DNA of 64,000 bases, from contig CAVPIR010000001.1 in NCBI GenBank assembly GCA_963705055.1, positions 1,164,890-1,228,889 on the forward strand, read 5' to 3'. The notes under the pieces were generated by a model. It was not told the DNA's origin, did not search any database, and worked only from the letters and a program-made list of their open reading frames with translations. This document shows, one piece after another, positions 21,615-37,772 of the stretch (positions are counted from its first letter, which is position 1; each line of letters starts with the position of its first letter). The translations under genes and the position numbers were made by a program. Source of the stretch: an uncultured Actinomycetota bacterium. Its GTDB lineage: Bacteria; Actinomycetota; Actinomycetes; Streptosporangiales; Streptosporangiaceae.

Positions 21615-23666
21615 ATGAGTACATCAGCGGACATCCACGCCCATGTGAAGGCGCCGGGTGCTGACGGACCGGGCGCGCCAGCGGAGGACGAGCGGCGGGA
21701 CGGCAGCCGGCGGTGGGCCGTGCTGGCCGTCGTCTCTGCTGCGCAATTCGTCATCATCCTCGACCTCTGGGTCGTCAACATCGCGCTGCCTGTGCTGCAA
21801 CGGGACTTCGCTCCCGCGACGCTGTCGAACGTCTCGTGGATCCTGGACGTGTATGCAATCGTGCTTGCCGCGCTACTCCTGCCGGGCGGCCGCGTTGCCG
21901 ACACCATCGGGCGCCGCCGCTGCTTCCTGGCGGGCCTCGTGGTCTTCGGCCTCGCTTCGCTGGGATGCGCTGTTGCTCCTAGCCTGCCGGCATTGATCGC
22001 GGGCCGGGCACTGCAAGCGGTGGGGGCCGCGGTGCTGCTACCGACCTCACTGGGACTCGCCCTGTCCGCGTTCCCGGCACGCCAGCGGGCCACGGCCGTC
22101 GGAATCTGGGCTGGAGTCGGCGCGGTGGCCGCCGGCAGCGGCCCTGTCATCGGCGGCCTGCTCGTCGAGTCGAGCTGGCGATGGATATTCCTGATCAATG
22201 TGCCCATCGCCGTGGTCACCTTCGCGGCAGCTGTCGCGATCCTGCCCCGAGGCGGCAGCGAGCGTCGCTCGCAGCGGTCCGGCTGGAGCATTGACCCGGT
22301 CGGGGCTCTGCTCGTGCTGGCCGCTGTCGGACTGGCGTGCACGGCGCTGACCGAGGCACCCGGATGGCCGCTCTCGCGAACAGTCCTGCTGCTGGCCGCG
22401 GGGCTGGCGCTCGGTGCCGCGTTCGTGGTCCACATCCGACGTCACCGCGATCCCCTGATTTCGCCCAGGCTCTTTGGCGTCCGCGCGTTCAGCGCCGGGG
22501 CCGCCGGACACGTCACGTATTACGCGGGGTTCGCTGGCATGCTGCTCGGCACCACCATGCTGCTCACCGTGCACTGGCACTTCTCGGTCCTGCACGCTGC
22601 TGCCGCGATCGCGCCAGGCCCGATCACGGCCGGGATCGTCTCGCCTTTCACCGGGCGCCTGTCGGCTCGCTTCGGCGCGCGGACCACGGTGACCGCGGGC
22701 GCGGTCTTCTTCGCTGCTGCCGCGGGATGGCTGCTGGCCAGCGCGGGAGGCCGCGCCGACTATGCCCACGTCGTGCTGCCGGCGATGCTGCTCTGGGGCG
22801 TTGCTAACGGACTCATCCAGCCGTCGCTGCTGGCGACAGCCGACACCGCTCCGCGTTCGGAGCTGGCGTCGGGGTCGGCGGTGCTCGCGACGGCGCGACA
22901 GATTGGCGCCGCCCTGGGCGTGGCGATCTTCGTGGCCGCGCTCGGCGCCGGGCCGGCGACGGGCCTGGCAGGGCTCGACCGTGCCTGGATTGTCGTCCTG
23001 ATCGCCGCCGCGTTGACCGCAGCTGCCGGGCTCGCGACCGGCGGCGGCCGGACTCGTGTCCGCAGTGGAGCGGCGGCCAGCGCCAGCAAGGTCGTGCTCA
23101 GGGACCGGTCCGCGGTGCTGATCAGGCAGGTTCAGAGCTCGGACGCGCCGTTGCTGGCCGACGGCTTCGACCGGCTGAGCCCGAAGTCGCGCCAGCAGCG
23201 GTTCCTGCGGACGAAGAAGCAGCTGACCGAGGCAGAGCTGCGCTACTTCACCGACGTCGACCACCACGACCACGAGGCTCTCGGCGCGCTTGACGACGCC
23301 GACGGCCGCGGTGTCGGCATCGCCAGGTACGTCAGGGATGCGGACGACCCGAAGGCGGCGGAGATCGCCGTCACCGTCGTCGACGACTGGCAGGGCAAGG
23401 GGCTCGGCACCGAGTTGCTGGCCCGGCTGTCTGACCATGCCCGCCTGGCAGGTATCCGCCGGTTCACCGGCATTGTCTCCGCCGACAACGTGGCGATGGA
23501 AACCGTGCTGGGCAAGATGCGCGCCAAGCGCGTCGGCTACGGGCCAGGCACCGTGCAGTATGAGATCGCCTTGTCGCCAGAGGAGTCGCCGGAGCAGCCG
23601 CCCGAGGAGGGGCCGGCCGAGAGCGACGGCACCGCTCCGATCGCCAAGGCCGAGTGCCGTGCTTAA
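21615..23666 (+). CDS. MFS transporter (DHA2/EmrB-like, ~14 TM) fused in frame to a C-terminal Pat-type GNAT acetyltransferase domain
   Basis: Single 683-aa ORF. The N-terminal ~480 aa is polytopic (DLWVVNIALPVLQRDF, GRVADTIGRRR). The C-terminal ~180 aa reads LIRQVQSSDAPLLADGFDRLSPKSRQQRFL...FTDVDHHDHEALGAL...VVDDWQGKGLGTELL, as in stand-alone actinobacterial GNATs. Confidence 0.75.
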   Translation: MSTSADIHAHVKAPGADGPGAPAEDERRDGSRRWAVLAVVSAAQFVIILDLWVVNIALPVLQRDFAPATLSNVSWILDVYAIVLAALLLPGGRVADTIGRRRCFLAGLVVFGLASLGCAVAPSLPALIAGRALQAVGAAVLLPTSLGLALSAFPARQRATAVGIWAGVGAVAAGSGPVIGGLLVESSWRWIFLINVPIAVVTFAAAVAILPRGGSERRSQRSGWSIDPVGALLVLAAVGLACTALTEAPGWPLSRTVLLLAAGLALGAAFVVHIRRHRDPLISPRLFGVRAFSAGAAGHVTYYAGFAGMLLGTTMLLTVHWHFSVLHAAAAIAPGPITAGIVSPFTGRLSARFGARTTVTAGAVFFAAAAGWLLASAGGRADYAHVVLPAMLLWGVANGLIQPSLLATADTAPRSELASGSAVLATARQIGAALGVAIFVAALGAGPATGLAGLDRAWIVVLIAAALTAAAGLATGGGRTRVRSGAAASASKVVLRDRSAVLIRQVQSSDAPLLADGFDRLSPKSRQQRFLRTKKQLTEAELRYFTDVDHHDHEALGALDDADGRGVGIARYVRDADDPKAAEIAVTVVDDWQGKGLGTELLARLSDHARLAGIRRFTGIVSADNVAMETVLGKMRAKRVGYGPGTVQYEIALSPEESPEQPPEEGPAESDGTAPIAKAECRA

Positions 23667-23709
23667 CCCCGAGGAGTTCGACGATGGTCGGGCCGACGTT
23701 CCTGGCGGA

Positions 23710-25081
23710 GTGAGCCGGCCAGTCGAGCGCGTGCTGGTGATAGGCGCCGGGATCGCAGGGCTCACGATCGCGAACTCCCTGACCCGCGCCGGCGTCGAGT
23801 GCGTCGTGCTGGAGGCGCGCGATCGGATCGGCGGGCGGCTGCACACCGTCGACCTGGCCGGCTCACCGGTCGACCTGGGCGGCTCATGGATCCACATGCC
23901 GGCCGGGAACCCGATGAGCGCCTTCGCCGACCTGGCTGGCGTACGCCGGCGCGACTGGAACCCGTTGCCGGAACTGGCCGGGTTCGACCGCGGCGAGGGA
24001 CGCCGCCTGTCGGACGCGGAGGTGCGGGCGAGCCTCGACATTCAGTTCGACGCCTTCCCCGAGGCGGTCCCCCGGCTGCTGGACGCGCTCGGGCCGCAGG
24101 CGTCCGCGGCTGATGGCATCGACGCGTTCGTGCCCAGCGCCGGCCTGGAGGCCGGGCGAGGCCAGGCGCGCGCGCCAGGGGCTGCACGCGATCGTCGAGG
24201 CTGAATCCGCTGACCTGGCCGAGCGCCAGTCGCTGCGCTGGATGTGGAACGAACTCGAGTACGGCGGGGACTACTTCGGCGACGTGCCAGAAGGGGGCTA
24301 CCGGCGCCTGGTCGACGCGATGGCCACCGGCGTCGATCTGCAGCTGAGCTGGGACGCGGCGGAGGTCGTGCGCTCGGCGGGCGGCGTGCGGGTTCGCGGC
24401 GCTGACGGCAGATCCGAGGAAGGCTCGCATGTCGTGGTGACGGTGCCGCTCGGGGTACTCAAGGGCGGCGCACCGAGCTTCTCTCCGGCATTGCCGCCGG
24501 AGCGGCAGGCAGCGATCGGCCGGCTCGGGTTCGGCCGCTACGAGAAGGTCGTGCTGCGGTTTGACGAGCCGGTCTGGCGCGATGCCGGCATGCCGAATCT
24601 GATGGTGTTCCCCCGCGATCCGCGGGAGCCGACGACCTGGGCGTTCGGGCTAGACGCGTTCGGCGCTGGCCCCGTGCTATCCGTGCAGCTCTTCCACACC
24701 GTGGCCGACCGGCTGCAGCATGCCAGCCACGAGGAGGCCGTGCGATGGGCCATGGACCTGCTCAGTGAGGCGATCGGCGGTCCTTGCCCGGAGCCGACCG
24801 CCGTCGCAGTGACGTCATGGGCGGCGGATCCGCACAGCCGCGGCGCCTATACCCACATCCCGCCGGGGGCCAGCCCAGCCGACGCCGACCTGCTTGGCGA
24901 GCCGATCGGCGGGCGTGTGCTGTTCGCCGGGGAGCACACGCAGAGCGCGCGGATAGCGTACGCCGACGGCGCGATGACCAGCGGCATCCGCGAAGCAAAA
25001 CGCCTGCTCGGCCTCCCCAGCGTTCGCCTGGGAGTTGTCACGGGCCGAGGGATCATCGCCTCCCCGCGACCGATCTCCTAG
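23710..25081 (+). CDS. FAD-dependent amine oxidase (polyamine/monoamine oxidase-like, ~456 aa); 1-nt insertion near ~24152
   Basis: VLVIGAGIAGLTIANSL...LEARDRIGGRL dinucleotide-binding start, continuing in the next frame with GEARRARQGLHAIVEAESADL...SWAADPHSRGAYTH...LFAGEHT. GTG 23710 is preferred; the upstream part of ORF 23290 overlaps the GNAT domain. Confidence 0.85.
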
Positions 25082-25084
25082 ACG

Positions 25085-26162
25085 TCATTGCGTGGTGGCT
25101 GGCGACGGGCTTGCTGCTGGCGCGGCGCCGGGGGCGAAGGTCGTCACGCACGAGAAGATAGGCGTGAGCGTGTTGTCGGGCATCCGCGTGACCGGCACGG
25201 GTGTATCGCTGGAGGCAATGGGAGTGGGAGACGGGCTCGCGGGTGTCAGAGTCTGGGTGCCATTGCACGTGACACTCGCAGTCCCCAGGTTCGCCACGAC
25301 CCGCAGAGCGTCATATCCGGTCGGCAAGGGCACGTTGAACGCAAGATTTCCGTCGCCCGCCGCGTCAGCGCCAGTCTGCGACAGATAGACGACGGGACCG
25401 ACCGTCAGGTCATCGCCCGCATCGGTAATCCGGACCGCCCGAACGCTCACGTTCAGGGTGTCGCTGACCTTCATGTCACTGATCTGGACCGTCACTGACA
25501 GAACGGACTGCGTTCCGATCTGTGTCCAGGTCGACGCTATTCTCGGGCGGTCACTGCTCGCGAGCGACTTCTCCAGATAGAAAACAGTGATCAGGGCGGC
25601 GAGGGAAAACAGGATGAAGCTAATAGTCGTCGGGTCGATCAGAAACCGGCCAACCGGCCGCCAGTTCCATCGGAATGGCCAGCGCCTCGGCTTCGGAGGC
25701 GGCGAGACCGTCCCTGCTCCGATCCGCCTCTGCGGAATCTCTCCCGTCGGCCTCTTCCCCATCGGCCTCCCAGGCTGCCAGATCGACCTCTGCCAGATCG
25801 ACGGTCGTGGTCGCGGGGCCAGTCGATCCGGCACGCTTCCCGCTCGTCCGGTTCCCGGCACCGGCGGTGACCAACTGTGTTCCGGCCAGCGAAATGCCCA
25901 CGGCGGCCACCGAGAGGATGAGCGCCGCCAGCAAGGGAACCGGGTTGTTTCGCAGGAAGCGGCTCACCGCGCCGGTGATGCCGCCGACGATCGCGATGGA
26001 GGTCGAGACGACGGTGAATCCGCCAGCCACGAGCTTGCCGACGTCAACTCCACCTCGTGCCGGAGCGCTGCCCTGATCCCCGGCCGCGCTTTCGTTCGCC
26101 CCGGACAGAGGGAAGTCCTTCGGAAGGCCTCCGAAACCCAATTCAGCGCTAGGTTCGGCCAT
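25085..26162 (-). CDS. Hypothetical 3-TM membrane protein with acidic linker and Ig-like/Pro-Thr-rich extracytoplasmic tail (~358 aa); 1-nt insertion near ~25655
   Basis: ORF 25620..26162 has TM segments LVAGGFTVVSTSIAIVGGITGAV and PLLAALILSVAAVGISLAG. It joins ORF 25085..25861 at ...ELAAGWP-FLIDPTTISFILFSLAALITVFYL. No family recognised. Confidence 0.6.
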
Positions 26163-26262
26163 ATCACCGGGCCGTTCTGCTCATGCGGACGCGGGTTGCA
26201 TCAATGCTGACGCCGGGCACCCGCCTTGTAAAGGTGCAAAATGCCTGCGTTCTTCCGGAACA

Positions 26263-26308
26263 TCGATGAACCCTTGATGCTGTTATGGAGACATCAAGGG
26301 CTCATCGA
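26263..26308. other. Long AT-richer hairpin/palindrome (17-bp stem, 1 mismatch, 12-nt loop) between the S8 peptidase and the 3-TM gene
   Basis: TCGATGAACCCTTGATG (26263-26279) pairs with CATCAAGGGCTCATCGA (26292-26308); the loop is CTGTTATGGAGA. Confidence 0.7.
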
Positions 26309-26537
26309 CGTCCGCCCCTGACAGAAAGAGTCCTAGCGGCTGAACGAGCCGGCGCGAGGGACGGGCGGCGTAGGCGCCCCCGGGATCGTGACGTCCGTAG
26401 TCGCCGATCCCAGGGGCGACCGCCCCCCGGGCCCCGCCGGGTCATCCGGCCACGGTTGACGCGGCGGTCGCGCGTTGGCCTCTTCAAGACAGAGTCGGCT
26501 TCACGGATCCAGATACATACGTGAACAAACCGCGTCG

Positions 26538-26563
26538 AGCGCCGCGCCCGCGAAGGCGGCGCT
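26538..26563 (-). terminator. GC-rich stem-loop ~40 nt downstream of the S8 peptidase stop (possible intrinsic terminator, no U-tract)
   Basis: AGCGCCGC (26538-26545) pairs with GCGGCGCT (26556-26563), 10-nt loop. Confidence 0.3.
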
Positions 26564-26603
26564 GGGGCGCGCGGCGGCCGAAGAAACGAGCGAAAGCGGG
26601 CCT

Positions 26604-27936
26604 TTAAGGGAACAGCCGCGGTCCGACGCCGACCCGGAACTGGCTCCTGGCCGCCGCCAGCAGCGCCTCAGCCGCACGCTGGGCGTTCTCGCCGGTGCGC
26701 GACATCCTCGCGGCGATCAGCCCGGTGACGATCGGCGTCGAGAACGACGTGCCGCTCCACTTGACGATGCCAGCAGACGTGTCGCGCACGGTGCCAGCGA
26801 TCGTCTTGTACCTGAGCTGAGCGTATGCGTTGACGATGTCTTCGCCGGGCGCGTAGACGTCCACCCAGGCCCCGTGATTGCTGAACCAGGATCGGCGCTG
26901 GCCGTCGCGGCTCATCGAGCCGACGCCGACGCACCAAGGGAACGCGGCCGGCCAGAACGGAGCGGTCCTGCCGTCGTTGCCAGCAGCCGCCACGAACGCG
27001 ACGCCGCCAAGCTGGCGGAGGCGCTCCTCCCAGAGCGCCTGAAAGGCGAGCGAGGGCACGTTTCCCCTGGTGTAGCCGCCCGCGGACATGCTGATGATGT
27101 CGGGCGAGCGCGACAGGGCGTCGTGGATCTGCTTGATGAGGCTCGATTCCCGCACGAAGCCAGAGACCTCGATCTCGCGCTCCACCACGACATGCGCCGC
27201 CGGGGCGAGGCAGCGAACCACCCCTGACACGAAGGTCCCGTGGCCGGCATAAGGATCGGCGAACCCCTGCCTGATGCGGTCAGGATCCTCAATGTCTGCC
27301 CTGGTATCGGCCTCAACGCCCTGGATCCACGGGGCCCACGCGCTGGCGCCCGTCTATCAGCCCGGTGTCTACGACGGATACCCGGACGTCAGCGCCGGCT
27401 GATGGGTCCCCGATAGCTGGCCACAGCGCGGCCCTGACCGCCGCGGGATTCTCGGCGTGCTGCGGCGTGATGACGGCCTCAGGCTCGGTGGCCGGGCACA
27501 TGGTGTTGGGCGTGATGATGAACGCGTGCTCGTGCGTCGCGACGCCGATGCCGAGCCGGCTGTCGAGGTCGGCGACCACATCGGGGGTGTGCTGAGTGTC
27601 ACGGACCTGGACGTCGAGCCTGCTGATGCCGGCGATGAGCGCGTGGTCATCGGTTGCCGGGGACGCGGCGCTGGACCCTGCCTGCTCGTCGGGAAGCGCA
27701 CCGAGGGCTTGCAGGGCATCACGCACCCGCGGCAGGTCCCGGTCACGAGTCAGCAGGGACTTGCTCAGGTAGAAGTAGGCGACGTGCCTGTCCTGCTCCC
27801 AGCTCAGCGGCCAGGCCCGCACATCCGGGTCAAGCTCGAGAGCACTCCGCGTCTCAGGAACCAGCCGTTGCCGGTTCGCCTCGCGCGCGAGTTCCTCTGC
27901 GGCAAAGGCCGCTACGCCGTCACCATTCCCCGCCAT
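26604..27936 (-). CDS. S8 (subtilisin-like) serine peptidase, no signal peptide, unassigned ~170-aa N-terminal domain (~443 aa); 1-nt insertion near ~27350
   Basis: Catalytic Asp in VRVSVVDTGLIDG and His in DPYAGHGTFVSG (readable in the 26604 frame upstream of its first start codon). Oxyanion Asn in AAAGNDG and Ser in WSGTSFSTPIVTG. ORFs 27313..27936 and 26604..27230 join as GLIDG-ASAWAPWIQGVEAD. Confidence 0.85.
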
Positions 27937-28037
27937 TTACATCATCCCCGCGTCGTCAGTTAAGCTCTCACCCGCTATTCCGGGCTAAGATAACCTATAG
28001 GGCCTTTACATTTCCTACTGTTGGGTGACATGTCGAA

Positions 28038-30733
28038 ATGTCCACGGCAGCCACGCGCGAGAAGGCCTCGGAAGCGCTAGCTTGGCTCGAGGTTCCGGTC
28101 GAGCAACTGCCATTGCTGGCGCTCTCCCGACCAGCTGACACTGCCCCGATCGCCGAGCGCGTGCTCGCGACCACCCGCGACCCCTATGCGCGCTCCTATG
28201 CGACGCAGGCACTCGGCGTCGCCAGCAGGGAACGGGGCAACGTCGCCCAGGCGGTGCGCTATCTGCGCGAGGCATTGGTCACGGCGGCATCCTGCGGAAA
28301 CGAACGGGAAGCGGACGTGCAGGCGAGCCTCGCGTCGACGCTGATCTACGCGGGCCGCAGCGCGGAAGCCATCAGGCACATGGATGAGGCTCTCAGCAAG
28401 GTGTCGGGCGCGATGGCGGCGCGGGTACGGCTACGCCGCGGTGGTCTCCTGCAGATCCTCGGCCGTCCCGGCGAAGCCGTCGACGATCTCCGGCGCGCGG
28501 CCCGGAGCCTTCGCGCCGCAGGCGACTCGGCCTGGGAGGCCAGAGCCCTCATCAACCTGTCGAATGCGCTCATCGATCAGGGCGACGCGGGAGCCGCCGA
28601 CGAGGCACTCACCCGTGCTGAATCCCTGCTGAGCGCGACCGGCCAGACGTTCGAGGCGGCAGTCGCCCGCTGCAACAGGGGCCTCGCGGCGTCGTTGCTC
28701 GGCAAGGTGCCTGAGGCGCTGGCGCACTTCGACGCGGCCGAGAAGATGTATGCCGTCTGCGGGGCACATCCCCTGGAACTCGCGGAGTCCCGAAGCGCAG
28801 CCCTGCTGGCGGCTGGCCTGAATGCCGACGCGCTACGGCACAGCCAGGAGGCTGCCGACATTCTGCGCAGCCAGGGCGGCACGGCGGCCTACCTGGCCAA
28901 CGCCGTGCTGCGCGTGGCCTACGCCGCGCTGGCCGCGCAGGAGCCTGAACTCGCTCGCGCCCGCGCCGCCGAGGCGGCGCAGATCTTCCGCAGGCAACAC
29001 CGTGAGCGCGGCGAGATGCTCGCCAGGATCGCGATTGCCCGCGCCAGGTACGCGTCCGGTGAACGAAGTCGCCGGCTGCTTCGCGATGTGACCGCGGCAG
29101 CTGCAGGCGGCCGACAAGCACCGGGTCGTCGAGGCCGTCGAAGCGCACGTGCTCGCCGCCGAAGTCGCGCTCGCGCTCGGCGACAGGGCCGCCGCCGGGC
29201 CGCATCTGGCTCGCGCGGCACGCGCCAGGTCGGGCAGGTCAGCCGCGGGCCGGGTCCTCGGCTGGCACGCGGCCGCGCGGCGGGCGGAGGCCAGCGGGCG
29301 CCGCAAGGCTGTCTTCGACGCCTGCGAGCAGGGCCTGCGGGTTCTCGATGCATACCAGCTGAGCCTGGGAGCCGTCGAGATGCGAGCCGCGGCGACCGGG
29401 CACGGCAGCGCGCTCGCGGCCATCGCGTCGCGCGAGGCGCTGGCGGCCGATGACGCGCGCCTGCTGCTGCGGTGGACCGAACGCTGGCGCGCGACAACCT
29501 TCGCGCTTCCGCCGGTGCGGCCGCCCGATGACAACGAGCTAGCGGCCAGCCTCGCGACACTGCGGCAGCAGACGCGGCTGATCAACGAGGCGACCGCGAG
29601 CGGCCGGCCGACCGGCGGGCTCGAGCGCGAACGTCAGCGTGTCGAAGAGGAGGTCAGGCGCCACGTGCTGCGGACCTCCGGCGCCATCGCCGAAGCCGGG
29701 ACGACCCGAGCGGAGATCGACGTCGACGAGATCCTCGCTGCGCTCGGCGACACCCGGCTCGTTGAGATCATGAGGCTCGACGGCCGTTTGCACGTGCTCG
29801 TCGCGACAGCGGCCGGTGTTCGCCGCCGGACCGGCGGGACGTGGGAAGCCGCGACGCGCGAGGCCGAGTTCACCCGGTTCGCGCTCCAGCGGCTCGCCTA
29901 CCACGCTCAGCCCGGCGGGACGCAGCCAGCGAGGCGGGAGCCAGTGCGAGCCATCGCGGCTGCGACCGCCGCCCTTGAGGCGTCAGCAGAACGGCTGCAG
30001 CGGGAGCTTTTCGCCGAAGCCCTGGACGACCTGGGCGATGGCCCGCTGATCATTGCGCCGCCCGCCGCGCTGCACGCCGTGCCGTGGGGCGCCCTGCCTG
30101 TCTTGGCCGACAGGCTCGTCAGCGTCGTTCCGTCCGCCAGAACGTGGCTGCGCGGCCGTGCGGCCGGCGCGCCCGCCGACCGCACGGTCGCCGTCATCGT
30201 CGGGCCCGGCCTGGAGAGCGCCGCGCTGGAAGTCGGCGCGCTGGCGAACTGCTACCCGCGAGCTGAGGTGCTGACGGGAGGAACTGCCACGGCGGAGAAC
30301 GCGCTCGCCGCGCTCGAAGGCCGCTGGCTGGCACACATCGCGGCGCACGGCAGTTTCCGCGCGGACAACCCGCTCTTCTCTTCGCTCATGCTCGACGACG
30401 GGCCGCTGACCGTGCACGACCTGCAGCGGCTCAAGCGCGCTCCGTACCGGCTCGTGCTCTCGTGCTGCGACTCCGGCGTGACCAGCTCAGCCGGAGCCGA
30501 CGAGCTACTGGGCTTGGTAGCCGCTCTAGGACAGCTCGGAACCGCGGGAGTGATCGCGCCTGTCGTCGCGGTGAACGACGCAGCCACGGTGCCTGTCACA
30601 TTGCGCCTGCACGAACGGCTCGCGGGCGGGGCCGGCAACGGCCGATGCACTGCGCGACGCGCGGCTGAGCCTGCGGGACGACCCGTGGTCATACGCGGCG
30701 GCGCGTGCTTATGTCGCCTTCGGAGCCGCATAG
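28038..30733 (+). CDS. TPR-repeat + CHAT (caspase-like) domain protein (~897 aa); 1-nt insertions near ~29097 and ~30630
   Basis: The N-terminal half has TPR-like Ala/Leu repeats. The C-terminal CHAT has His (WLAHIAAHGSF) and Cys (YRLVLSCCDSGV). Junctions: LLRDVTA-QLQAADKHRVVEAVEAHVLAAEVALALG and LHERLAGG-PATADALRDARLSLRDDPWSYAAARAYVAFGAA, stop 30731-30733. Confidence 0.82.
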
Positions 30734-30799
30734 ATGCGAGCGGATAGCCGACAATGAAGGCACGTACCTTTCATGGCGGTTAGCGGAGGAATGTAGGCC

Positions 30800-31438
30800 G
30801 TGGAGCAGGGTGAGGCAGACAGCCTGGTCAAGGCGGCTGCGGAAGGTGACGAGGCGGCCTGGCGGGCGATTGTGGAGCGTTTCAGCGGCCTCGTCTGGGC
30901 CGTAGCGCGCAGTTTTCGCCTCAGCCCATCCGACGCGAGCGACGTCTATCAGACGGTCTGGCTTCGTCTCGCCGAGAACCTGCTCCGCATCCAGAACCCG
31001 GACCAGCTTGGTGCGTGGCTCGCCACGACCGCACGGCACGAGTCGTTGCGCCTGATACGAGGCCGCGGGCGGGCCGTTCTGATGGATGACGCGACGCTGG
31101 TCGACCTGCTACCCGCGGACGAGGCCACGCCCGAGCTCGCGGCCCTCGAGGCCGAGCAGGCGAGTCTGGAAGCGCACCGCGTGAAACAGATGTGGCGCGC
31201 CTTCCGCAAGCTGCCAGCCCGCTGCCAGCAACTTCTCCGGGTGCTGATGGCGACCCGCCGGCCCAGCTACGCCGAGGCCGCAGCCGCCCTGGATGTGCCG
31301 GTCGGAAGCATCGGCCCGACCCGGGCCCGCTGCCTCCAGCAGCTGCGCCGGCTCATTGGCGAGGTATCCGAGAGCGAGTCGGAGGCTCATACCAAGGAGA
31401 AGGACAACCAGGAGGACGGACGTGCGGGACGAGCCTGA
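30800..31438 (+). CDS. ECF-type sigma-70 family RNA polymerase sigma factor
   Basis: Region 2 (AWRAIVERFSGLVWAVARSFRLSPSDASDVYQTVWLRLAENL) and region 4 (KLPARCQQLLRVLMATRRPSYAEAAAALDVPVGSIGPTRARCLQQLRRL). GTG follows GGAGGAA. Confidence 0.88.
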   Translation: MEQGEADSLVKAAAEGDEAAWRAIVERFSGLVWAVARSFRLSPSDASDVYQTVWLRLAENLLRIQNPDQLGAWLATTARHESLRLIRGRGRAVLMDDATLVDLLPADEATPELAALEAEQASLEAHRVKQMWRAFRKLPARCQQLLRVLMATRRPSYAEAAAALDVPVGSIGPTRARCLQQLRRLIGEVSESESEAHTKEKDNQEDGRAGRA

Positions 31439-31880
31439 CGACGCCGTGCTCGAGGAGCAACTCAGGCAGATCATTGAGCGCCTCGACCCGGTGCCCGAAC
31501 GGCTTCTAGCGGCCGCGATGGATTGCTATACGTGGCGAACTGTCGACAGCGATCTCGCTGAACTCGTCTTCGATTCCGTGGCTGAGGATCACGGGGTACT
31601 GGTGCGCGGCGCTGATCATTCCCGCCTGCTGTCCTTCGAGGCCCCCGACCTGACCGTCGATATCCAGGTCAGCGGCAGCGGATCGGCCCGCCGCATCATC
31701 GGCCAGCTAGCGCCGCCGCAGCGCTCGACGATCCAGATCCGCCAGGGCCGCGAGGCTGACCACCTGGAGACCGACGAGCTGGGCCGGTTTACCGGGCCGC
31801 TGCGAGACGGCCCCTTCAGCCTGCTGTGTACCGGCGCCGAAGGAAGCCCGCCGGTCGTCACCGACTGGATCACCATCTAG
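31422..31880 (+). CDS. Hypothetical 152-aa protein coupled to the ECF sigma gene; C-terminal carboxypeptidase-regulatory-like beta-sandwich signature
   Basis: GTG 31422 lies 5 nt after GGAGGA and overlaps the sigma stop by 17 nt. VRDEPDDAVLEEQLRQIIERLDPVPERLLAAAMDCYTWRTVDSDLAEL...TVDIQVSGSG...GQL...TDELGRFTGPLRDGPFSLLC. Confidence 0.6.
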   Translation: MRDEPDDAVLEEQLRQIIERLDPVPERLLAAAMDCYTWRTVDSDLAELVFDSVAEDHGVLVRGADHSRLLSFEAPDLTVDIQVSGSGSARRIIGQLAPPQRSTIQIRQGREADHLETDELGRFTGPLRDGPFSLLCTGAEGSPPVVTDWITI

Positions 31881-31942
31881 CAGCTGGTCAAAGACGCCCT
31901 GCCGCGCATGTAACCAGCACGCTGACGATCAGCGGCGCGAGC

Positions 31943-31967
31943 GCAGCGGCCGGAATTCCGCCGCTGC
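31943..31967 (+). terminator. Near-perfect 25-nt palindrome/hairpin (GCAGCGGCCGGAATTCCGCCGCTGC) 63 nt after the 152-aa ORF
   Basis: Outer arms GCAGCGG/CCGCTGC plus inner CGGAATTCCG palindrome. Located between the convergently ended cluster and dsbA. Confidence 0.4.
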
Positions 31968-31986
31968 CCGACCGGTTGCCACTGGC

Positions 31987-32691
31987 ATGCGTGTTGAGAT
32001 CTGGTCGGACGTGGTCTGCCCGTGGTGCTACATCGGCAAGCGCCGCTTCGAGCGCGCCCTCGCCTCCTTTGACCACGCCGAGGACGTCTCAGTCACCTAC
32101 CGGGCCTTCGAGCTTGATCCAAGCGCGCCCGCAGAGCGGACGGGCACCCACGCCGAGCACCTCGCCCGCAAGTACGGCATGTCGGTCGAGCAGGCCGGGC
32201 AACTGGACCAGCAGATGACCGAGCGGGCCGCCGCCGAGGGCCTGGACTTCCAGTTCGACGTCATGCGCGGCGGCAACACGTTCGACGCCCACCGGCTGCT
32301 TCACCTCGCCGGAGAGCGCGGCGCGCAGGTCGAGATGAAAGAACGGCTGATGCGCGCCACGTTCACCGACGGGCTGCCTATAGCCGACAAGGAGACGCTC
32401 GTAGGCCTCGCCGCGGACGTCGGCATTCCGGCAGACGAGGCCCGCGAGAGCCTCGACGGCGACGCCTACGCAGATGCGGTGAGAGACGACGAAGACCAGG
32501 CCGCTCGGTACGGCATCACAGGGGTCCCTTTCTACGTCGCCAACGGCAAATACGCGGTCAGCGGAGCCCAGCCAGCAGAGGTGTTCGGGCAACTGCTGCA
32601 GCGGGCCTACAGCGAGGACAACCCGCTGGCGCATGTCACCGACGGCGACGGAGACGTGACCTGCGAGGGCGACTCCTGCCCCGTCGGCTAA
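31987..32691 (+). CDS. DsbA family oxidoreductase (FrnE-like thioredoxin fold)
   Basis: MRVEIWSDVVCPWCYIGKRRFERAL with the CPWC active site; 234-aa intact ORF. Confidence 0.88.
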   Translation: MRVEIWSDVVCPWCYIGKRRFERALASFDHAEDVSVTYRAFELDPSAPAERTGTHAEHLARKYGMSVEQAGQLDQQMTERAAAEGLDFQFDVMRGGNTFDAHRLLHLAGERGAQVEMKERLMRATFTDGLPIADKETLVGLAADVGIPADEARESLDGDAYADAVRDDEDQAARYGITGVPFYVANGKYAVSGAQPAEVFGQLLQRAYSEDNPLAHVTDGDGDVTCEGDSCPVG

Positions 32692-32723
32692 CCCCTTGCG
32701 ACGGTAACGCTCTTGACGGCCAT

Positions 32724-33290
32724 CTACGTCAAGCCGTCCCGTCCCCTCGTGAGCCGGACCAGGAGCACCTCGAGTATGCGCGTGTCGCTGGGAATCTCGG
32801 CCCGTTCCAGCTCGTCGATCTGCCAGGCGGAGAAAGTGTCGTGCATGACGTTCTCATCGATGTCGTTCCGCACGCCGGCCACACGGAGCGAAACCCGGAG
32901 GAGCAGCTTGCCGCCTGGCTTTAGCACGCGGCGCAGTTCGGCCGCGTATCCCGGCCGGTCCTGTCTGGCCAGGTACTGGAAGCAGCCGCGGTCAAGGCAC
33001 ACGTCCAGCGTCGCCGACTGGAGTGGGGTACGCAGCAGGTCGGCGCGCAGATAAGCCGGACCAGGGTTGCGCTGGGCGGCAGCGACAAGGGCAATCGCGG
33101 ATAGGTCCAGCCCGACGACCTGCCAGCCGAGCGAATGCAGATGCGCTGCCTCGCTCCCGAGGCCGCAGCCGACGTCAAGCACACGGCCGGGCGCGGGAAG
33201 CCAAGCATCCGTCAGCGCGGCCAGCAACTCCGGCGACGGACCGGACAGATGCCACCATCGGTAAGTTCCATCGGCATACTGATCGGTCAC
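32724..33290 (-). CDS. Class I SAM-dependent methyltransferase
   Basis: Motif I VLDVGCGLGSEAAHL and post-I VVGLDLS; 188 aa. Confidence 0.85.
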   Translation of the reverse strand: MTDQYADGTYRWWHLSGPSPELLAALTDAWLPAPGRVLDVGCGLGSEAAHLHSLGWQVVGLDLSAIALVAAAQRNPGPAYLRADLLRTPLQSATLDVCLDRGCFQYLARQDRPGYAAELRRVLKPGGKLLLRVSLRVAGVRNDIDENVMHDTFSAWQIDELERAEIPSDTRILEVLLVRLTRGRDGLT

Positions 33291-33345
33291 CGCAGCTCAC
33301 AAGGCCGAGTCAGCAGCGAGCCGGAATCGTGAGCTAACTCGGGTT

Positions 33346-33705
33346 TCAGGATCGAACGAGCCTGGCGATGGCTTCGGAGGCTTCACGGATCTTGTCTGTC
33401 GCGGCGTCGCCGCCTTCGGCGACTGCTCCGGCGACACAATGGCTGAGATGCTCGTCGAGGAGGCCGAGCGCTACTGCCTGGAGGGCTCTGGTTGCTGCGG
33501 CGATCTGGGTGAGGATGTCGATGCAGTAGTTGTCTTCGTCGACCATTCGCTGCAGGCCGCGGATCTGGCCTTCAATGCGGCGGAGCCGTTTGATGTAGGC
33601 GTCTTTGTCGTGGGTGTAGCCGTACACAGGTGTCCTCCCGGCCGGAGCCAGGTCCTGGCGCGGGTCGCGCGTGCCTGGCTGCCAGGGTACGGCCTGCGGC
33701 GCCAT
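33346..33705 (-). CDS. csoR: Copper-sensing transcriptional repressor CsoR (metal-sensitive repressor family)
   Basis: KRLRRIEGQIRGLQRMVDEDNYCIDILTQIAAATRALQAVALGLLDEHLSHCV closely matches the CsoR core as I remember it, including the Cys...His-Cys ligands. The N-terminal start is uncertain. Confidence 0.88.
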   Translation of the reverse strand: MAPQAVPWQPGTRDPRQDLAPAGRTPVYGYTHDKDAYIKRLRRIEGQIRGLQRMVDEDNYCIDILTQIAAATRALQAVALGLLDEHLSHCVAGAVAEGGDAATDKIREASEAIARLVRS

Positions 33706-33742
33706 GACGCTCGCGGGGAGGCTGCGTTGGCCGCGGCCGGCA

Positions 33743-34911
33743 TCAGCCCGATGAGCCGAACTGAATGGGGACCTTCACGACCTGCGTGACGCGCCAAGCG
33801 GCGGTGCCATCCGCGAGTTGCCAGACCGTCAGCTTGGTGCGGTGGACGGCTAGGGCGCTGAACCCGCTCACGGGGCCTGGCGTCAGGGTCGCCGTCCCTG
33901 GGGGCAGAGCGCGGCAGCGGGCCCCATGAGTGCGAGGGACCGGAGATGGTTTCCGCATGTTTGCCGTTCAGGATGATCGCGACAGCGCCGCCTGGGCCGA
34001 ACGATGCGGAGGTCAGCCTGGCGCCGCCGAGCCGGACCGGGCTTGAGAGAACCCAGTGGCCGCCGCTGCCGTGTCGACCAGGCGGCGATCAGGCTCGCGG
34101 TCGGCCCGGCCCCAGCTTGAAGGAGTGCCACCGTGCCGGTCAGGGTCCGGGTCAGCCTGAGCACTGTGATGCGCTGACGGGCCAGCGCGGCTGGCGGTGC
34201 TGGCCCGGCTGCCTGCCAGGTCCCGTTCAGGAAGGCGAAGATTCCGGTGGTTCCAGGGCGGCTGCAGCTGCCAGCCAGCAGCGGCGCCCCGGCCGGCGTG
34301 AACGTCGCAGCCGTGAGTGTGCCGAGGCCGCAGCGCCGGCCAGCAGGTGTGGCGGCCAGGGCGCGCCGGCTGACAAGGGTGGCCCAGCGGGTGTAGCCGG
34401 GGACGGCGACTTTCGCAGCACCGCTGGTCAGCAGGGCGAGCAGCCGCCCCGTTCCAGGCGCGGCGGCCAGGGCGTCAGGCGAGTCGGCCAGGGCTGCGTC
34501 CAGCGGGCCGGCCACCGCCCACGCGCCGCCGCCGTCGCGGGTGACCGACAGCGGGGTGTAGGTGAGGTACTGGCTGGGCCGGATCGCAGTGATCAGCGAA
34601 CGCCCGCCAGCATCGGTCACCACCATGCCGCCGTTGTCGGCCACCCCGGGCGGGGTGACCAGCTTCCAGCGGCTCGTCCCGGCCGGGCGGACGAACAACT
34701 GCCAGAAGTTATTGTGAGCGGCGGCCGAGCCGCCCATGACCGCGACCGCCCATGTCCCCGCGGCCGTCGTCAAGGACGTGGCCAGGACCGCCACACCGCG
34801 CGGCTGCGGCCCGCCGGGGAGACTCCCCGCGGGTCCTGTCCTGCTGCCGCAGCCCGCGGCAACGACCGAGGCCGCGAGGGCGATCGCGGCAGCAGCTCTG
34901 CGGCCTCTCAC
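33743..34911 (-). CDS. Secreted lipoprotein of unknown function (~388 aa); two 1-nt insertions (~34058, ~33915)
   Basis: MRGRRAAAAIALAASVVAAGC lipobox. The body continues through three frames (...LIAAWST / GSGGHWVLSSPVRLGGARLTSASFGPGGAVAIILNGKHAETISGPSHSWGPLP / ALPPGTATLTPGPVSGFSALAVHRTKLTVWQLADGTAAWRVTQVVKVPIQFGSSG). Confidence 0.65.
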
Positions 34912-36738: not shown

Positions 36739-36897
36739 GACGCCGCGTCGATCGCGTTCAGCTTCTTCTCGACGCGTGCCGCGCAGGCCGTGCACGTCAT
36801 CCCGGCGATCGACAGGTCCACGCCGGAAATCTACCCACGGGCAAAACAGTTCCGCAATTCGGAAGGCCTAAAGAATTCCGGAGGAACTAGCGGCAGA

Positions 36898-36968
36898 ATA
36901 CCGGGAGGGGGTTTGAGAAATACCGGGCGGCGGTATCTGAGGATCGCTGAGAATACCCCATTGGGGTT
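36898..36968. promoter_or_regulatory. Three tandem CsoR-type pseudo-palindromic boxes in the divergent SCO-operon/DUF5134 spacer
   Basis: ATACCGGGAGGGGGTTT (36898-36914), ATACCGGGCGGCGGTAT (36920-36936), ATACCCCATTGGGGTT (36953-36968). Each is preceded by GA(G)A. They resemble the TACC...GGTA GC-rich dyads bound by CsoR proteins. Confidence 0.5.
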
Positions 36969-37142
36969 CTGCCACCGCACACTGGCCTGAACGGCAGGCG
37001 GCTCAGCAAGCGAGGGGCTTTATGTGAATTAGCGCCAGCTGAATTAACCTGCCAGCGTCATGAGAACGCCGAAATCCGGGCCAGGCGCAGGCTCGTCCGT
37101 TATGGGATTTGCACCTTTCGGTTCCACCAGGCGGACGATGAC

Positions 37143-37763
37143 ATGACCGGCCCGCCGTGGCTCGCTGGCGCGCTCGCGGCCCTGATGATCCTGGTCGCCG
37201 CGGCGGCCGCGGCCCGCCTGTGCTGGTGGCGGCTGCACGGCCGGCCAGCCGACGCCGACGCCGACGCTTTGCACGTGCTGATGGGCATCGCGATGGCCGG
37301 GATGTTCGAGCCCGGGATCGGCCCCGTCCCCGCCATCGCCTGGCAGTTCGTCTTCGCCGTTGCGGCAACCTGGTTCACCTGGCAGGCAGCCCGGCGGCGC
37401 GCGCGGCAGCGGTACCCGGACCCTGCAGTCGCACCCCGGGCCTCACGTCGTCGAGTGCGGCGCGATGCTCTACATGCTCTGGCCCGCGGGGGCACGCCAC
37501 GAGGCGGCCGGCATGCCAGGCATGACAGGGCACGCCGGCGCGATCGCCGGTAATCCGGCGCTTGCGCTCGTGCTGGCGGCCGGCATGCTCGGCTACATCG
37601 TCTGGGCGATCGATCAGCTGCTATCCCGGACACGGCCCAGTACCGGCGCGCCAGGTCCCCGCCCGAACGACGCGGAAGGCCGCCACTCGCCCCGCGCCTT
37701 GCCGCCTGCCAGAAGATCACCATGGGCCTGACTATGGGCTACATGCTCCTCACGATGCTCTAA
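37143..37763 (+). CDS. DUF5134-like membrane protein (~206 aa); frame goes +1 near ~37410 and back near ~37690
   Basis: MTGPPWLAGALAALMILVAAAAAARL...ALHVLMGIAMAGMF, then HPGPHVVECGAMLYMLWP...ALALVLAAGMLGYIVWAIDQLL, then LAPRLAACQKITMGLTMGYMLLTML, stop 37761-37763. Family name is from memory. Confidence 0.6.
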
Positions 37764-37772
37764 AGGCACTGG

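What the first reader, a model, noticed from the sequence alone, without database searches (positions are those of the whole stretch)
25085..31975. Signal-less S8 subtilase + TPR-CHAT caspase-like protease + ECF sigma + coupled beta-sandwich ORF: candidate protease-gated signalling or conflict module
Layout. Two arms diverge from a 101-bp AT-richer spacer (27937-28037).
Left arm. First comes an S8 peptidase with no signal peptide, an unassigned ~170-aa N-terminal domain and an intact catalytic set (VVDTG, GHGTF, AAAGNDG, GTSFSTP). After a 440-bp gap containing a 17-bp-stem hairpin comes a 3-TM protein with an acidic linker and an Ig-like/Pro-Thr-rich outer tail.
Right arm. First comes an ~897-aa protein with TPR-like repeats and a CHAT domain that retains the caspase-type His/Cys dyad (HIAAHGSF, LSCCDSG). 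Next is an ECF-type sigma factor. Last is a 152-aa ORF whose GTG overlaps the sigma stop by 17 nt and which ends in a carboxypeptidase-regulatory-like beta-sandwich. No zinc-binding or membrane anti-sigma factor is evident.
Why it matters. It is established that CHAT domains are caspase-like proteases, used for example by type III-E CRISPR (Craspase) and by NTPase/TPR conflict systems. Here there is no CRISPR, STAND NTPase or recognisable effector. Two apparently intracellular proteases wired to a dedicated sigma factor would therefore be an uncharacterised arrangement, either proteolytic sigma activation or an abortive-infection-like cascade.
Caveat. The S8 gene (1), the CHAT gene (2) and the membrane gene (1) each need a 1-nt frame correction.
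Basis: partly seen in the sequence, partly recalled or inferred. Interest (0 to 1): 0.7.

Follow-up and report, generated by a model that had tools for sequence, protein, structure and literature searches.

The report
ECF54-type sigma factor protease cassette
This is a real four-gene cassette, widely conserved in actinobacteria, made of an alternative sigma factor, a small partner protein and two intracellular proteases; it was already catalogued as the "ECF54" sigma-factor neighbourhood, has never been tested experimentally, and its apparent frameshifts are sequencing errors.

Summary
An S8 subtilase (26604-27936, minus strand) diverges from a TPR-CHAT protease (28038-30733), an ECF sigma factor (30800-31438) and a 152-aa protein (31422-31880).

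- **Frameshifts:** Each one in the S8 and CHAT genes is a 1-nt insertion relative to a 95%-identical relative. The same kind of insertion hits unrelated neighbouring genes, at about 11 coding insertions in 20 kb. This is assembly noise, not gene death.
- **Conservation:** Of 80 species-level loci found through the 152-aa protein, 79 have the sigma directly upstream and 64 also carry both S8 and CHAT. They span Streptosporangiaceae, Micromonosporaceae and Acidimicrobiia, and Streptomyces and Nonomuraea loci fetched separately show the same layout.
- **Catalytic residues:** They are invariant in the S8 (55/55) and CHAT (53/53) orthologues.
- **Not part of it:** The membrane gene and DsbA are found only in the closest relative.
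- **Prior knowledge:** The set matches the published genomic context of group ECF54 (CarboxypepD_reg-like protein, subtilase, CHAT; no anti-sigma; proteolytic control proposed).

My best reading is that the 152-aa protein is the sigma's soluble partner or inhibitor and that the two cytoplasmic proteases supply the input. Nothing links the cassette to phage defence. It is a new member of a known, experimentally untested kind.

The parts
26604..27936 (-). S8 subtilase, 443 aa after removing a 1-nt insertion at 27352. It has a ~175-aa N-terminal domain with no family match, a conserved C-P-A-x-E-P junction and the catalytic residues D190/H232/N320/S397. It has no signal peptide.
   Evidence: Pfam PF00082. 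Frame break located against the intact 443-aa orthologue in L001. Catalytic residues invariant in 55/55 orthologues. No N-terminal hydrophobic run in 52/55 orthologues. N-domain has no Pfam hit even at E<10. Junction P148 54/55 and P152 52/55.
27937..28037 (.). Divergent 101-bp intergenic spacer, 48.5% GC, presumably holding the promoters of both arms. Conserved blocks are CCCGCTATTCCGGGCTAAG and CCTTTAC(A/C)TTTCC.
   Evidence: Composition. Alignment with L003-L006. No sigma-70 consensus found. No shared ECF-type motif could be established.
28038..30733 (+). TPR-CHAT caspase-like protease, 897 aa after removing 1-nt insertions at 29102 and 30636. TPR repeats lie in roughly residues 50-240, followed by a helical middle region and a CHAT domain at 651-884 with the H770/C810 dyad. 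There is no Walker A motif.
   Evidence: Pfam TPR_12 and CHAT. Insertions located against L001. Single 897-aa ORFs in L004-L006. Dyad invariant in 53/53 orthologues. No P-loop. No sequence relative among solved structures, including Csx29.
30800..31438 (+). ECF-type sigma factor, 212 aa, GTG start, preceded by a GGAGGA ribosome-binding site. It fits group ECF54 by genomic context.
   Evidence: Sigma70_r2 and TIGR02937 over residues 20-184. Found directly upstream of the 152-aa gene in 79/80 loci. Context matches the ECF54 description.
31422..31880 (+). 152-aa partner protein. Two N-terminal helices (7-21 and 26-53) carry the near-invariant motif LAEL(V/T)FDS. A linker with invariant V61-R62 and R68 follows, then a C-terminal 7-strand beta-sandwich related to CarboxypepD_reg. 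It has no peptidase domain, zinc motif or transmembrane segment. It is a candidate soluble anti-sigma or adaptor.
   Evidence: Exact match to P0001. Alignment A1. AlphaFold2 model. PF13620 in 8/35 members. 17-nt overlap with the sigma stop, and a median sigma-to-partner gap of 0 nt over 79 loci. Linker residues conserved. About 2,400 clusters at 50% identity with E<=1e-10.

Best explanation
The locus is an ECF54-type sigma-factor cassette from an uncultured actinobacterium related to Streptosporangiaceae. It has four parts: an ECF sigma factor, a translationally coupled 152-aa protein, a cytoplasmic TPR-CHAT cysteine protease and a cytoplasmic S8 serine protease with an N-terminal prodomain-like region.

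**Shown**
- The four genes travel together across Actinomycetes and Acidimicrobiia.
- The sigma and the 152-aa gene form the tightest pair.
- The catalytic residues of both proteases are invariant.
- None of the four proteins has an export or membrane signal.
- The frameshifts are assembly errors.

**Inferred mechanism**
- The 152-aa protein binds the sigma through its conserved N-terminal helices and holds it inactive, or otherwise gates it. It would be an unrecognised soluble anti-sigma, not a 'carboxypeptidase'.
- The TPR region of the CHAT protein receives an intracellular cue.
- The CHAT protease then cleaves the 152-aa protein, plausibly at the invariant Val-Arg in the inter-domain linker. 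It does so either directly or by first activating the S8 zymogen.
- The freed sigma then transcribes its regulon.

This is regulated proteolysis of a sigma inhibitor carried out entirely in the cytoplasm, analogous to Csx29-Csx30-CASP-sigma but without CRISPR.
For: **Identity and conservation**
- Domains confirmed by Pfam and NCBIfam.
- Of 80 species-level loci, 79 have the sigma directly upstream of the small protein and 64 have S8 and CHAT as well. They occur in two arrangements that always keep S8 and CHAT divergent.
- The same cassette is found in Streptomyces sp. HMX87 and Nonomuraea gerenzanensis.
- Flanking genes differ everywhere.
- The gene set matches the published ECF54 context.

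**Active, intracellular proteases**
- Catalytic residues are invariant.
- There are no signal peptides or transmembrane segments.

**The 152-aa protein as the sigma's partner**
- The median intergenic gap is 0 nt.
- Five or six loci keep only the sigma and small-protein pair.
- It has a helical N-terminus followed by a beta-sandwich. Its most conserved motif lies in a stretch that AlphaFold2 cannot place in the monomer, as expected for a binding or cleavage segment.

**Precedent**
- TPR-CHAT Csx29 cleaves Csx30, an inhibitor of an ECF-like sigma (PMC10028731).
- SAVED-CHAT activates a second protease in an operon that also encodes a sigma factor (bioRxiv 10.1101/2023.06.23.546230).

**Frameshifts as artefacts**
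- They sit at different positions in the two relatives. About 11 single-base insertions fall in coding sequence across 20 kb, including unrelated genes. The truncated S8 fragment is already in the public record.
Against: - No physical or structural evidence shows that the 152-aa protein binds the sigma. A complex model could not be run.
- The protein has no similarity to any known anti-sigma domain or solved structure.
- The protease substrate is unknown. The published proposal is that the proteases act on the sigma itself.
- Casas-Pastor et al. warn that conserved neighbours may be targets rather than regulators.
- The S8 N-domain model was too poor to show a prodomain (pLDDT 41.9).
- No shared promoter motif was found that would tie the arms to the sigma in this clade.
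- ECF54 membership rests on context. It was not tested with the ECF Hub models or by comparison with a named member.
Confidence: 0.6

Rival explanations
1. The proteases act on the sigma factor itself, as the literature proposes for ECF54. S8 and/or CHAT keep the sigma level low by degrading it, or activate it by trimming it. The 152-aa protein would be an adaptor or a regulon product, not an inhibitor.
For: This is the mechanism written in the review for ECF54, and it has been shown for AntA/ClpXP. The sigma has a ~25-aa charged C-terminal tail beyond region 4. The 152-aa protein shows no recognisable anti-sigma domain.
Against: The sigma and the 152-aa gene are coupled more tightly and more universally than either protease gene is (79/80 against 64/80), and the pair persists where the proteases are absent. 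That pattern is typical of a sigma and its direct partner.
Confidence: 0.15
2. The proteases and the small protein are outputs of the sigma rather than its regulators. The sigma would switch on an intracellular proteolysis programme, for example for remodelling, development or starvation.
For: Casas-Pastor et al. state explicitly that regulators and targets cannot be told apart from conserved neighbourhoods. In 39 loci S8 sits in the same operon as the sigma, and some of them have an ECF-like motif, GATGTTAGA-N16/17-CGTC, upstream.
Against: ECF sigmas normally need a post-translational gate and none other is encoded nearby. TPR-CHAT and prodomain-bearing S8 architectures are typical of signal-activated proteases. 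No promoter motif was found in the window clade.
Confidence: 0.12
3. The cassette is an anti-phage or abortive-infection conflict system. The TPR-CHAT protein senses infection and triggers a protease cascade, together with a transcriptional response.
For: It is a self-contained cassette found in varying genomic contexts, sometimes in two copies per genome (L006 and L018 come from the same metagenome-assembled genome). CHAT and S8 proteases both occur in known defence systems, and the S8 gives a weak IetS-like hit. In 14 relatives a Walker-A/LuxR protein lies next to CHAT. Craspase and SAVED-CHAT provide analogies.
Against: No PADLOC system-level match was found. There are no copies in phage records, IMG/VR contigs or true plasmids. 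The window has no CRISPR, and the neighbours are redox and copper-homeostasis genes. No toxic effector domain is evident. The family is very widespread in soil actinobacteria.
Confidence: 0.08
4. The cluster is decaying: the frameshifts are real and the S8, CHAT and membrane genes are pseudogenes.
For: Four frame breaks lie within 6 kb, and they are present in the deposited assembly.
Against: The same type of 1-nt insertion occurs in CsoR, AhpC/SCO1, DUF5134, MFS and methyltransferase genes nearby. The relative L001 has a different break in the CHAT gene and none at the window's positions. Outside the breaks the proteins are 91-97% identical to orthologues and all catalytic motifs are intact. 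Related assemblies are long-read metagenome bins.
Confidence: 0.03

Closest known systems
[quoted passage not shown] 2015, J Bacteriol 197:2517; Casas-Pastor et al. 2021, PMC7826278; review PMC8999054)
   Same: Both are actinobacterial ECF sigmas with no recognisable anti-sigma. Both have neighbours carrying a CarboxypepD_reg-type domain, a subtilase and a CHAT domain, and proteolytic regulation is proposed for both. All of these features are present here.
   Different: - No difference was detected in the gene set.
- The 4Fe-4S protein that Casas-Pastor reports near ECF54 was not seen in the 20 kb around the cassette.
- The 'carboxypeptidase' of the literature is only a beta-sandwich with a helical N-terminus, not a peptidase.
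- The family extends into Acidimicrobiia.
Type III-E CRISPR 'Craspase' accessory set: Csx29 (TPR-CHAT), Csx30, Csx31 and CASP-sigma (PMC10028731)
   Same: A TPR-CHAT protease is genetically linked to an ECF-like sigma and small partner proteins. In that system the protease cleaves the sigma's inhibitor to release transcription.
   Different: - No Cas7-11 or CRISPR array is present.
- The CHAT protein has no detectable sequence similarity to Csx29, or to any solved CHAT protein.
- The 152-aa protein is unrelated to the 565-aa Csx30.
- A second protease, S8, is present here.
- The activating signal is unknown.
SAVED-CHAT to PCaspase cascade with PCc-sigma in Haliangium ochraceum type III-B/CBASS (bioRxiv 10.1101/2023.06.23.546230)
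   Same: Two different proteases and a sigma factor share one gene cluster. [quoted passage not shown]
   Different: - The sensor here is TPR, not a cyclic-oligoadenylate-binding SAVED domain.
- The second protease is a subtilase, not a C14 caspase.
- There is no cyclase, kinase or CRISPR context.
DdvS/DdvA of Myxococcus xanthus (PMC11506125, PMC6061681) and CalpL-CalpT-CalpS
   Same: An ECF sigma is controlled by an anti-sigma that is coupled to a protease domain. That domain is CHAT in DdvA and Lon in CalpL.
   Different: - DdvA is a transmembrane anti-sigma with its own CHAT domain, and CalpL is activated by cyclic oligoadenylate.
- Here the protease and the putative anti-sigma are separate soluble proteins.
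- There is no link to a defence island.
Classical regulated proteolysis of anti-sigma factors (RseA with DegS/RseP/ClpXP; RsiW)
   Same: The logic is the same: a sigma is released by stepwise proteolysis of its inhibitor.
   Different: In the classical systems the inhibitor and proteases are membrane-bound and sense the cell envelope. Here every component is predicted to be cytoplasmic.

Membership tests
ECF54 sigma-factor group | ECF-type sigma with regions 2 and 4 only | tested here: met
   Sigma70_r2 (E 6e-12) and TIGR02937 sigma70-ECF over residues 20-184 (E 2e-18).
ECF54 sigma-factor group | Actinobacterial host | tested here: met
   The window is 68% GC. The nearest relatives are Actinomycetota and Streptosporangiaceae metagenome bins and isolates.
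ECF54 sigma-factor group | No canonical (zinc-binding or membrane) anti-sigma encoded next to the sigma | tested here: met
   The adjacent 152-aa protein has no Pfam or NCBIfam anti-sigma hit, no HxxxCxxC motif and no transmembrane segment.
ECF54 sigma-factor group | Conserved neighbours with CarboxypepD_reg-type, subtilase and CHAT domains | tested here: met
   All three are present in the window. 64 of 80 related loci carry them, or 64 of 73 loci that have enough flanking sequence.
ECF54 sigma-factor group | Assignment by the ECF Hub group model, or clustering with a named member (e.g. SFT86700.1, Geodermatophilus amargosae) | not testable with these tools
   Neither the ECF Hub models nor that sequence is available here. 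Huang 2015 is not in the held library.
ECF54 sigma-factor group | Nearby 4Fe-4S protein (reported by Casas-Pastor 2021 as an additional trait, not a defining one) | tested here: inconclusive
   No Fer4-type Pfam family appears among the genes called within 10 kb either side in the 95%-identical locus L001. Flanks of other loci were only inspected by eye.
Peptidase S8 (subtilase), active enzyme | Asp-His-Ser triad plus the oxyanion Asn, in the canonical order | tested here: met
   D190, H232, N320 and S397 are present and invariant in 55/55 orthologues.
CHAT (clan CD caspase-like) protease, active enzyme | His-Cys catalytic dyad within a PF12770 domain | tested here: met
   PF12770 at E 3e-25. 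H770 and C810 are invariant in 53/53 orthologues.
Type III-E Craspase module | Cas7-11 effector and CRISPR array in the locus | tested here: not met
   No CRISPR-like tandem array in the 64 kb. No cas families among the called neighbours.
Type III-E Craspase module | Homology of the protease to Csx29 and of the partner to Csx30/Csx31 | tested here: not met
   A phmmer search against all PDB chains found only generic TPR proteins at E>=0.002. The partner-protein profile found nothing, and Foldseek found only generic beta-sandwiches at E>0.01.
Known anti-phage defence systems (PADLOC-DB v2) | Component proteins match system-specific models | tested here: not met
   Only the S8 domain gives generic or weak hits (subtilase 1e-9, IetS 2e-6 over 55 residues). 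The CHAT, sigma and 152-aa proteins give none.
NTPase/TPR (STAND-type) conflict systems | P-loop NTPase domain fused to, or adjacent to, the TPR protein | tested here: not met
   The CHAT protein has no Walker A motif. A separate Walker-A/LuxR gene lies next to CHAT in 14 relatives, but not in the window clade.

The most novel reading that the evidence does not exclude
The 152-aa helix-plus-beta-sandwich protein is a new class of soluble cytoplasmic anti-sigma factor. It would be destroyed by a two-step cytoplasmic protease cascade: TPR-CHAT senses the cue and cleaves at the invariant Val-Arg linker, or first activates the S8 zymogen. That would make ECF54 cassettes a free-standing, CRISPR-independent counterpart of the Craspase/CASP-sigma and SAVED-CHAT/PCaspase pathways, widespread in soil actinobacteria and possibly responding to an intracellular threat such as phage.
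Probability: 0.3. Interest if true: 0.7.

Novelty: new member of a known kind. Interest (0 to 1): 0.4.

Why it matters
ECF54 is one of the few ECF sigma groups with no known regulator and no experimentally studied member. If the proposed mechanism holds, it would add a wholly cytoplasmic, caspase-like route to sigma-factor activation. It would also show that the protease-to-sigma logic recently found next to CRISPR systems exists as an independent signalling cassette, with about 2,400 divergent family clusters.

This analysis adds several things to the published description:
- The so-called carboxypeptidase is not a peptidase, and it is the sigma's tightest partner.
- Candidate cleavage and binding motifs are identified.
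- The cassette has two fixed gene arrangements.
- It extends into Acidimicrobiia.
- Culturable hosts that could be used for testing are named: Nonomuraea gerenzanensis, Streptosporangium spp. and Streptomyces sp. HMX87.

For this particular window the practical message is mundane: the genes are ordinary members of that family, and the frameshifts are assembly errors.

Tried and rejected
- **AlphaFold2 of the S8 protein:** 27 close homologues gave mean pLDDT 41.9, which is unusable. Only the secondary-structure order of the N-domain (beta-alpha-beta-beta-alpha-beta, like an I9 propeptide) is noted, as weak evidence. No fold search was run on it.
- **Searches with the 152-aa protein:** Foldseek and PDB sequence searches found only generic beta-sandwiches.
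- **Pfam on eight S8 N-domains at E<10:** Nothing.
- **Promoter search:**
  - No sigma-70 consensus was found.
  - Dyad enumeration found GATGTTAGA-N16/17-CGTC upstream of S8. It occurs only in Streptosporangium and a few related metagenome bins, which are closely related to each other, and not in the window clade.
  - A shared CCTTT(A)CA element about 30 nt upstream of both the CHAT and sigma starts is too weak to call.
- **Rfam on 24500-33000:** No match, so the hairpin at 26260-26311 is unassigned.
- **Mobility and defence checks:** PADLOC, phage records, IMG/VR and plasmids were all negative. The one 'plasmid' hit is the 11.85-Mb Nonomuraea replicon.
- **Natural fusions of the small protein to a sigma or anti-sigma domain:** Only one doubtful 254-aa sequence with a sub-threshold region-4 hit.
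- **Literature access:** Huang et al. 2015 and the supplementary group descriptions of Casas-Pastor 2021 are not held, so the ECF54 definition comes from the 2021 main text and the 2022 review.
- **Pseudogene reading:** Considered and rejected.

Full report
**1. What is in the sequence**

The window is about 68% GC.

On the minus strand lies an S8 peptidase gene, with its ATG at 27936 and stop at 26604. A 101-bp spacer follows (27937-28037), at 48.5% GC against 68.7% in the flanks. On the plus strand come three genes:
- a TPR-CHAT gene at 28038-30733;
- an ECF sigma gene, GTG 30800 to 31438;
- a 152-aa ORF whose GTG at 31422 overlaps the sigma stop by 17 nt.

Pfam and NCBIfam give the following:
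- Peptidase_S8 at E 5e-23;
- TPR_12 and related families plus CHAT at E 3e-25;
- Sigma70_r2 and TIGR02937.

The 152-aa protein and the upstream membrane protein match no family. The hairpin in the 441-bp gap is real: arms 26260-26279 and 26292-26311, 20 nt each and 90% complementary. It matches no Rfam family.

**2. The frameshifts are sequence noise**

A 95%-identical relative (L001/L003, a long-read metagenome bin labelled uncultured Actinomycetota) has the same gene order. Its S8 gene is an intact 443-aa ORF.

Base-level alignment shows that each frame break in the window's S8 and CHAT genes is a single inserted base, at 27352, 29102 and 30636. The relative has its own, different 1-nt deletion in the CHAT gene. 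More distant relatives (L004-L006) encode CHAT as one ORF of exactly 897 aa.

The same kind of 1-nt insertion also interrupts unrelated neighbouring genes in the window: CsoR (twice), a 388-aa hypothetical (twice), AhpC/SCO1, DUF5134, an MFS fusion and a methyltransferase. That is about 11 coding insertions in 20 kb.

The truncated 207-aa S8 fragment is itself an exact entry in the public protein collection. It comes from the same 1.3-Mb contig as the 152-aa protein, so the errors are in the deposited assembly. The genes should be treated as intact.

Its frame switch lies between 25696 and 25872, so part of the 'acidic linker' is a wrong-frame reading.

**3. Conservation**

The 152-aa protein has 119 relatives in the word-indexed search. 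A profile search of 1.84 billion cluster representatives found about 4,980 clusters at E<=1e-3 and 2,409 at E<=1e-10. Nearly all are stand-alone proteins of 140-175 aa.

Scanning one genome per species with its motif [DE]LAELVFDS returned 80 loci. They come from:
- Streptosporangiaceae bins;
- Streptosporangium, Actinomadura, Spongiactinospora and Dactylosporangium isolates;
- a Micromonosporaceae bin;
- many Acidimicrobiia and Ilumatobacteraceae.

tblastn with the corrected window proteins gave these counts:

| Feature | Loci |
|---|---|
| Sigma directly upstream of the small gene | 79 of 80 |
| Both S8 and CHAT within 10 kb | 64 of 80 |
| Loci lacking S8 and/or CHAT that have under 5.5 kb of upstream flank | 7 of 16 |

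The median gap between the sigma stop and the small-protein start is 0 nt.

Two arrangements occur, and in both S8 and CHAT diverge from one spacer:
- the window type, S8(-)<>CHAT-sigma-small, in 25 loci;
- CHAT(-)<>S8-sigma-small, in 39 loci.

Streptomyces sp. HMX87 and Nonomuraea gerenzanensis carry the second type, and in the Streptomyces locus the neighbouring genes overlap by 4 nt. Flanking genes differ from genome to genome. The membrane gene and DsbA are shared only with the closest relative, so they are not part of the module. Five or six loci with full flanks keep only the sigma and small-protein pair, one of them next to translation and transcription genes. The sigma and small protein are therefore the core, and the two proteases are a usually linked pair.

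**4. Properties of the proteins**

*S8.* D190, H232, N320 and S397 are invariant in 55/55 orthologues. There is no N-terminal hydrophobic run in 52/55, and no transmembrane-like segment.
- The ~175-aa N-domain matches no Pfam family even at E<10.
- It shows a recurrent pattern (Y..G.hLVR ... GV..Y.L ... LG.GVATPNHhxSI) followed by a conserved C-P-A-x-E-P junction.
- The AlphaFold2 model was poor (pLDDT 41.9). Its secondary-structure order, beta-alpha-beta-beta-alpha-beta, resembles a subtilisin propeptide, but this is only a hint.

*CHAT.* H770 and C810 are invariant in 53/53 orthologues. There is no Walker A motif and no sequence relative among solved structures, Csx29 included.

*The 152-aa protein.* The AlphaFold2 model has mean pLDDT 78.7.
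- It gives two helices (7-21 and 26-53), a linker, and a confident 7-strand beta-sandwich at 68-150.
- Foldseek finds only generic sandwiches.
- 8 of 35 family members reach PF13620 CarboxypepD_reg.
- The most conserved stretch, LAEL(V/T)FDS followed by V61-R62 and R68, falls in the region of lowest confidence. This is what one expects of a segment that folds on a partner or is presented to a protease.
- It has no zinc motif and no transmembrane segment.

**5. Comparison with what is known**

A 2022 review of non-canonical ECF sigmas covers this arrangement (PMC8999054). [quoted passage not shown] It cites Huang 2015 and Casas-Pastor 2021, and its table lists only a Geodermatophilus accession as the example.

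Casas-Pastor et al. describe ECF54 as actinobacterial, without an anti-sigma, and sister to the planctomycete group ECF58. They caution that neighbours may be regulators or targets (PMC7826278).

The window meets every context feature of that description. Formal assignment with the ECF Hub models could not be done here. No paper reporting an experiment on ECF54 turned up.

The nearest experimentally studied analogues are the following:
- **Craspase.** The TPR-CHAT protease Csx29 cleaves Csx30, which binds and inhibits the ECF-like CASP-sigma (PMC10028731).
- **The Haliangium cascade.** SAVED-CHAT cleaves and activates PCaspase in an operon that also encodes a sigma factor (bioRxiv 10.1101/2023.06.23.546230).
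- **CalpL/T/S.** A Lon-type protease, CalpL, cleaves the potential anti-sigma CalpT to release the sigma CalpS.

The window shares the logic of these systems but not homology with them. It has no CRISPR array.

**6. Mechanism**

The best-supported reading is that the 152-aa protein is the sigma's direct partner, most likely a soluble inhibitor. The two cytoplasmic proteases would provide the input, with the TPR region acting as sensor or scaffold.

Clan CD proteases commonly cleave after Arg. This is established for metacaspases, gingipain R, clostripain and separase. The invariant V-R in the linker is therefore a plausible cleavage site, but that is inference only. Whether CHAT acts directly or through the S8 zymogen cannot be decided here.

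The rivals, in order of weight, are:
- direct proteolysis of the sigma, which is the wording in the literature;
- the proteases as regulon outputs;
- a defence or abortive-infection system;
- a decaying pseudogene cluster.

The defence reading has little support:
- PADLOC gives only generic S8 hits;
- there are no copies in phage genomes, IMG/VR contigs or true plasmids;
- the neighbours are redox and copper-homeostasis genes.

**7. Verdict**

The locus is a new member, from an uncultured actinobacterium, of a gene arrangement already catalogued as the ECF54 context and still untested at the bench.

Interest is moderate at 0.4. The system is a good experimental target because of its parallels with CRISPR-associated protease and sigma pathways, but the finding itself is neither new nor surprising to specialists in ECF sigma factors.

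Noticed in passing
window 21226-41656 (e.g. 24149, 33673, 33720, 33908, 34071, 35253, 37401, 41108): Relative to the 95%-identical locus L001, the window carries about 11 single-base, non-homopolymer insertions inside coding regions of many unrelated genes (MFS fusion, CsoR, a 388-aa hypothetical, AhpC/SCO1, DUF5134, a methyltransferase). This is a systematic insertion-type error in the source assembly, so any ORF-based reading of this window needs frame correction.
   Followed up: yes
window 26260-26311: There is a strong hairpin (20-nt arms, 90% complementary, 12-nt loop) in the 441-bp gap between the S8 stop and the membrane-gene start. It is conserved in L001 and has no Rfam match. It may be a terminator or attenuator for S8, or a 5'-UTR element of the membrane gene.
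   Followed up: partly
window 25085-26162 (minus strand), especially 25652-25875: A 3-TM protein with a Pro/Thr-rich tail is found only in the closest relative. Its central linker (about 220 nt here against about 140 nt in L001) does not align between the two genomes, so this segment is hypervariable or badly assembled. The true frame switch lies between 25696 and 25872.
   Followed up: partly
window 31987-37800: Downstream of the cassette lies a redox and copper-homeostasis neighbourhood: DsbA/FrnE-like oxidoreductase, TPMT-type methyltransferase, CsoR-type metal repressor, a 388-aa hypothetical, an AhpC-TSA/SCO1 fusion and DUF5134. It is shared only with the closest relative, so a functional link to the sigma is possible but unsupported.
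   Followed up: no
L007, L008, L010, L018, L019, L025-L043 (region upstream of S8, about 7.9-8.2 kb in locus coordinates): In loci where S8 heads the sigma operon, the sequence GATGTTAGA-N16/17-(G)CGTC lies upstream of S8. It resembles an ECF-type -35/-10 pair and could be the autoregulated ECF54 promoter. It is not found in the window's clade, and the loci that have it are closely related to each other.
   Followed up: partly
L053 3376-5199, L083 950-2761, and 12 other Streptosporangium/Actinomadura loci: A ~607-aa protein with a Walker A motif (GSSGSGKT) and a C-terminal LuxR-type helix-turn-helix lies convergent to the CHAT gene. It is 45-58% identical between Streptosporangium, Actinomadura and Streptomyces. 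It may be a fifth, clade-specific component (an NTPase regulator) of the cassette, and it is absent from the window clade.
   Followed up: partly
L006 and L018 (contigs CAVUFO010000012 and CAVUFO010000018, same metagenome bin MFD04944.bin.1.328): One genome carries two copies of the cassette, one in each gene arrangement. The two arrangements are therefore paralogous lineages that can coexist.
   Followed up: no
L016, L039, L056, L065, L071 (sigma and small protein at about 9.4-10.5 kb): The sigma and 152-aa-type pair is present without S8 or CHAT within 10 kb. In L071 the pair sits among translation and transcription genes. It is unknown whether the proteases are encoded elsewhere in these genomes.
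   Followed up: partly
window 27970-27995 and 28010-28030: The divergent spacer has conserved blocks: GCCCGCTATTCCGGGC, a short inverted repeat, and CCTTTAC(A/C)TTTCC. A similar CCTTTCA lies about 30 nt upstream of the sigma start (30755-30765). These may be operator or promoter elements.
   Followed up: partly
window 21615-25081: A large fusion ORF (MFS transporter, GNAT acetyltransferase and amine oxidase; 1149 aa in L001) shows several in-frame indels relative to L001 around 23573-23640.
   Followed up: no
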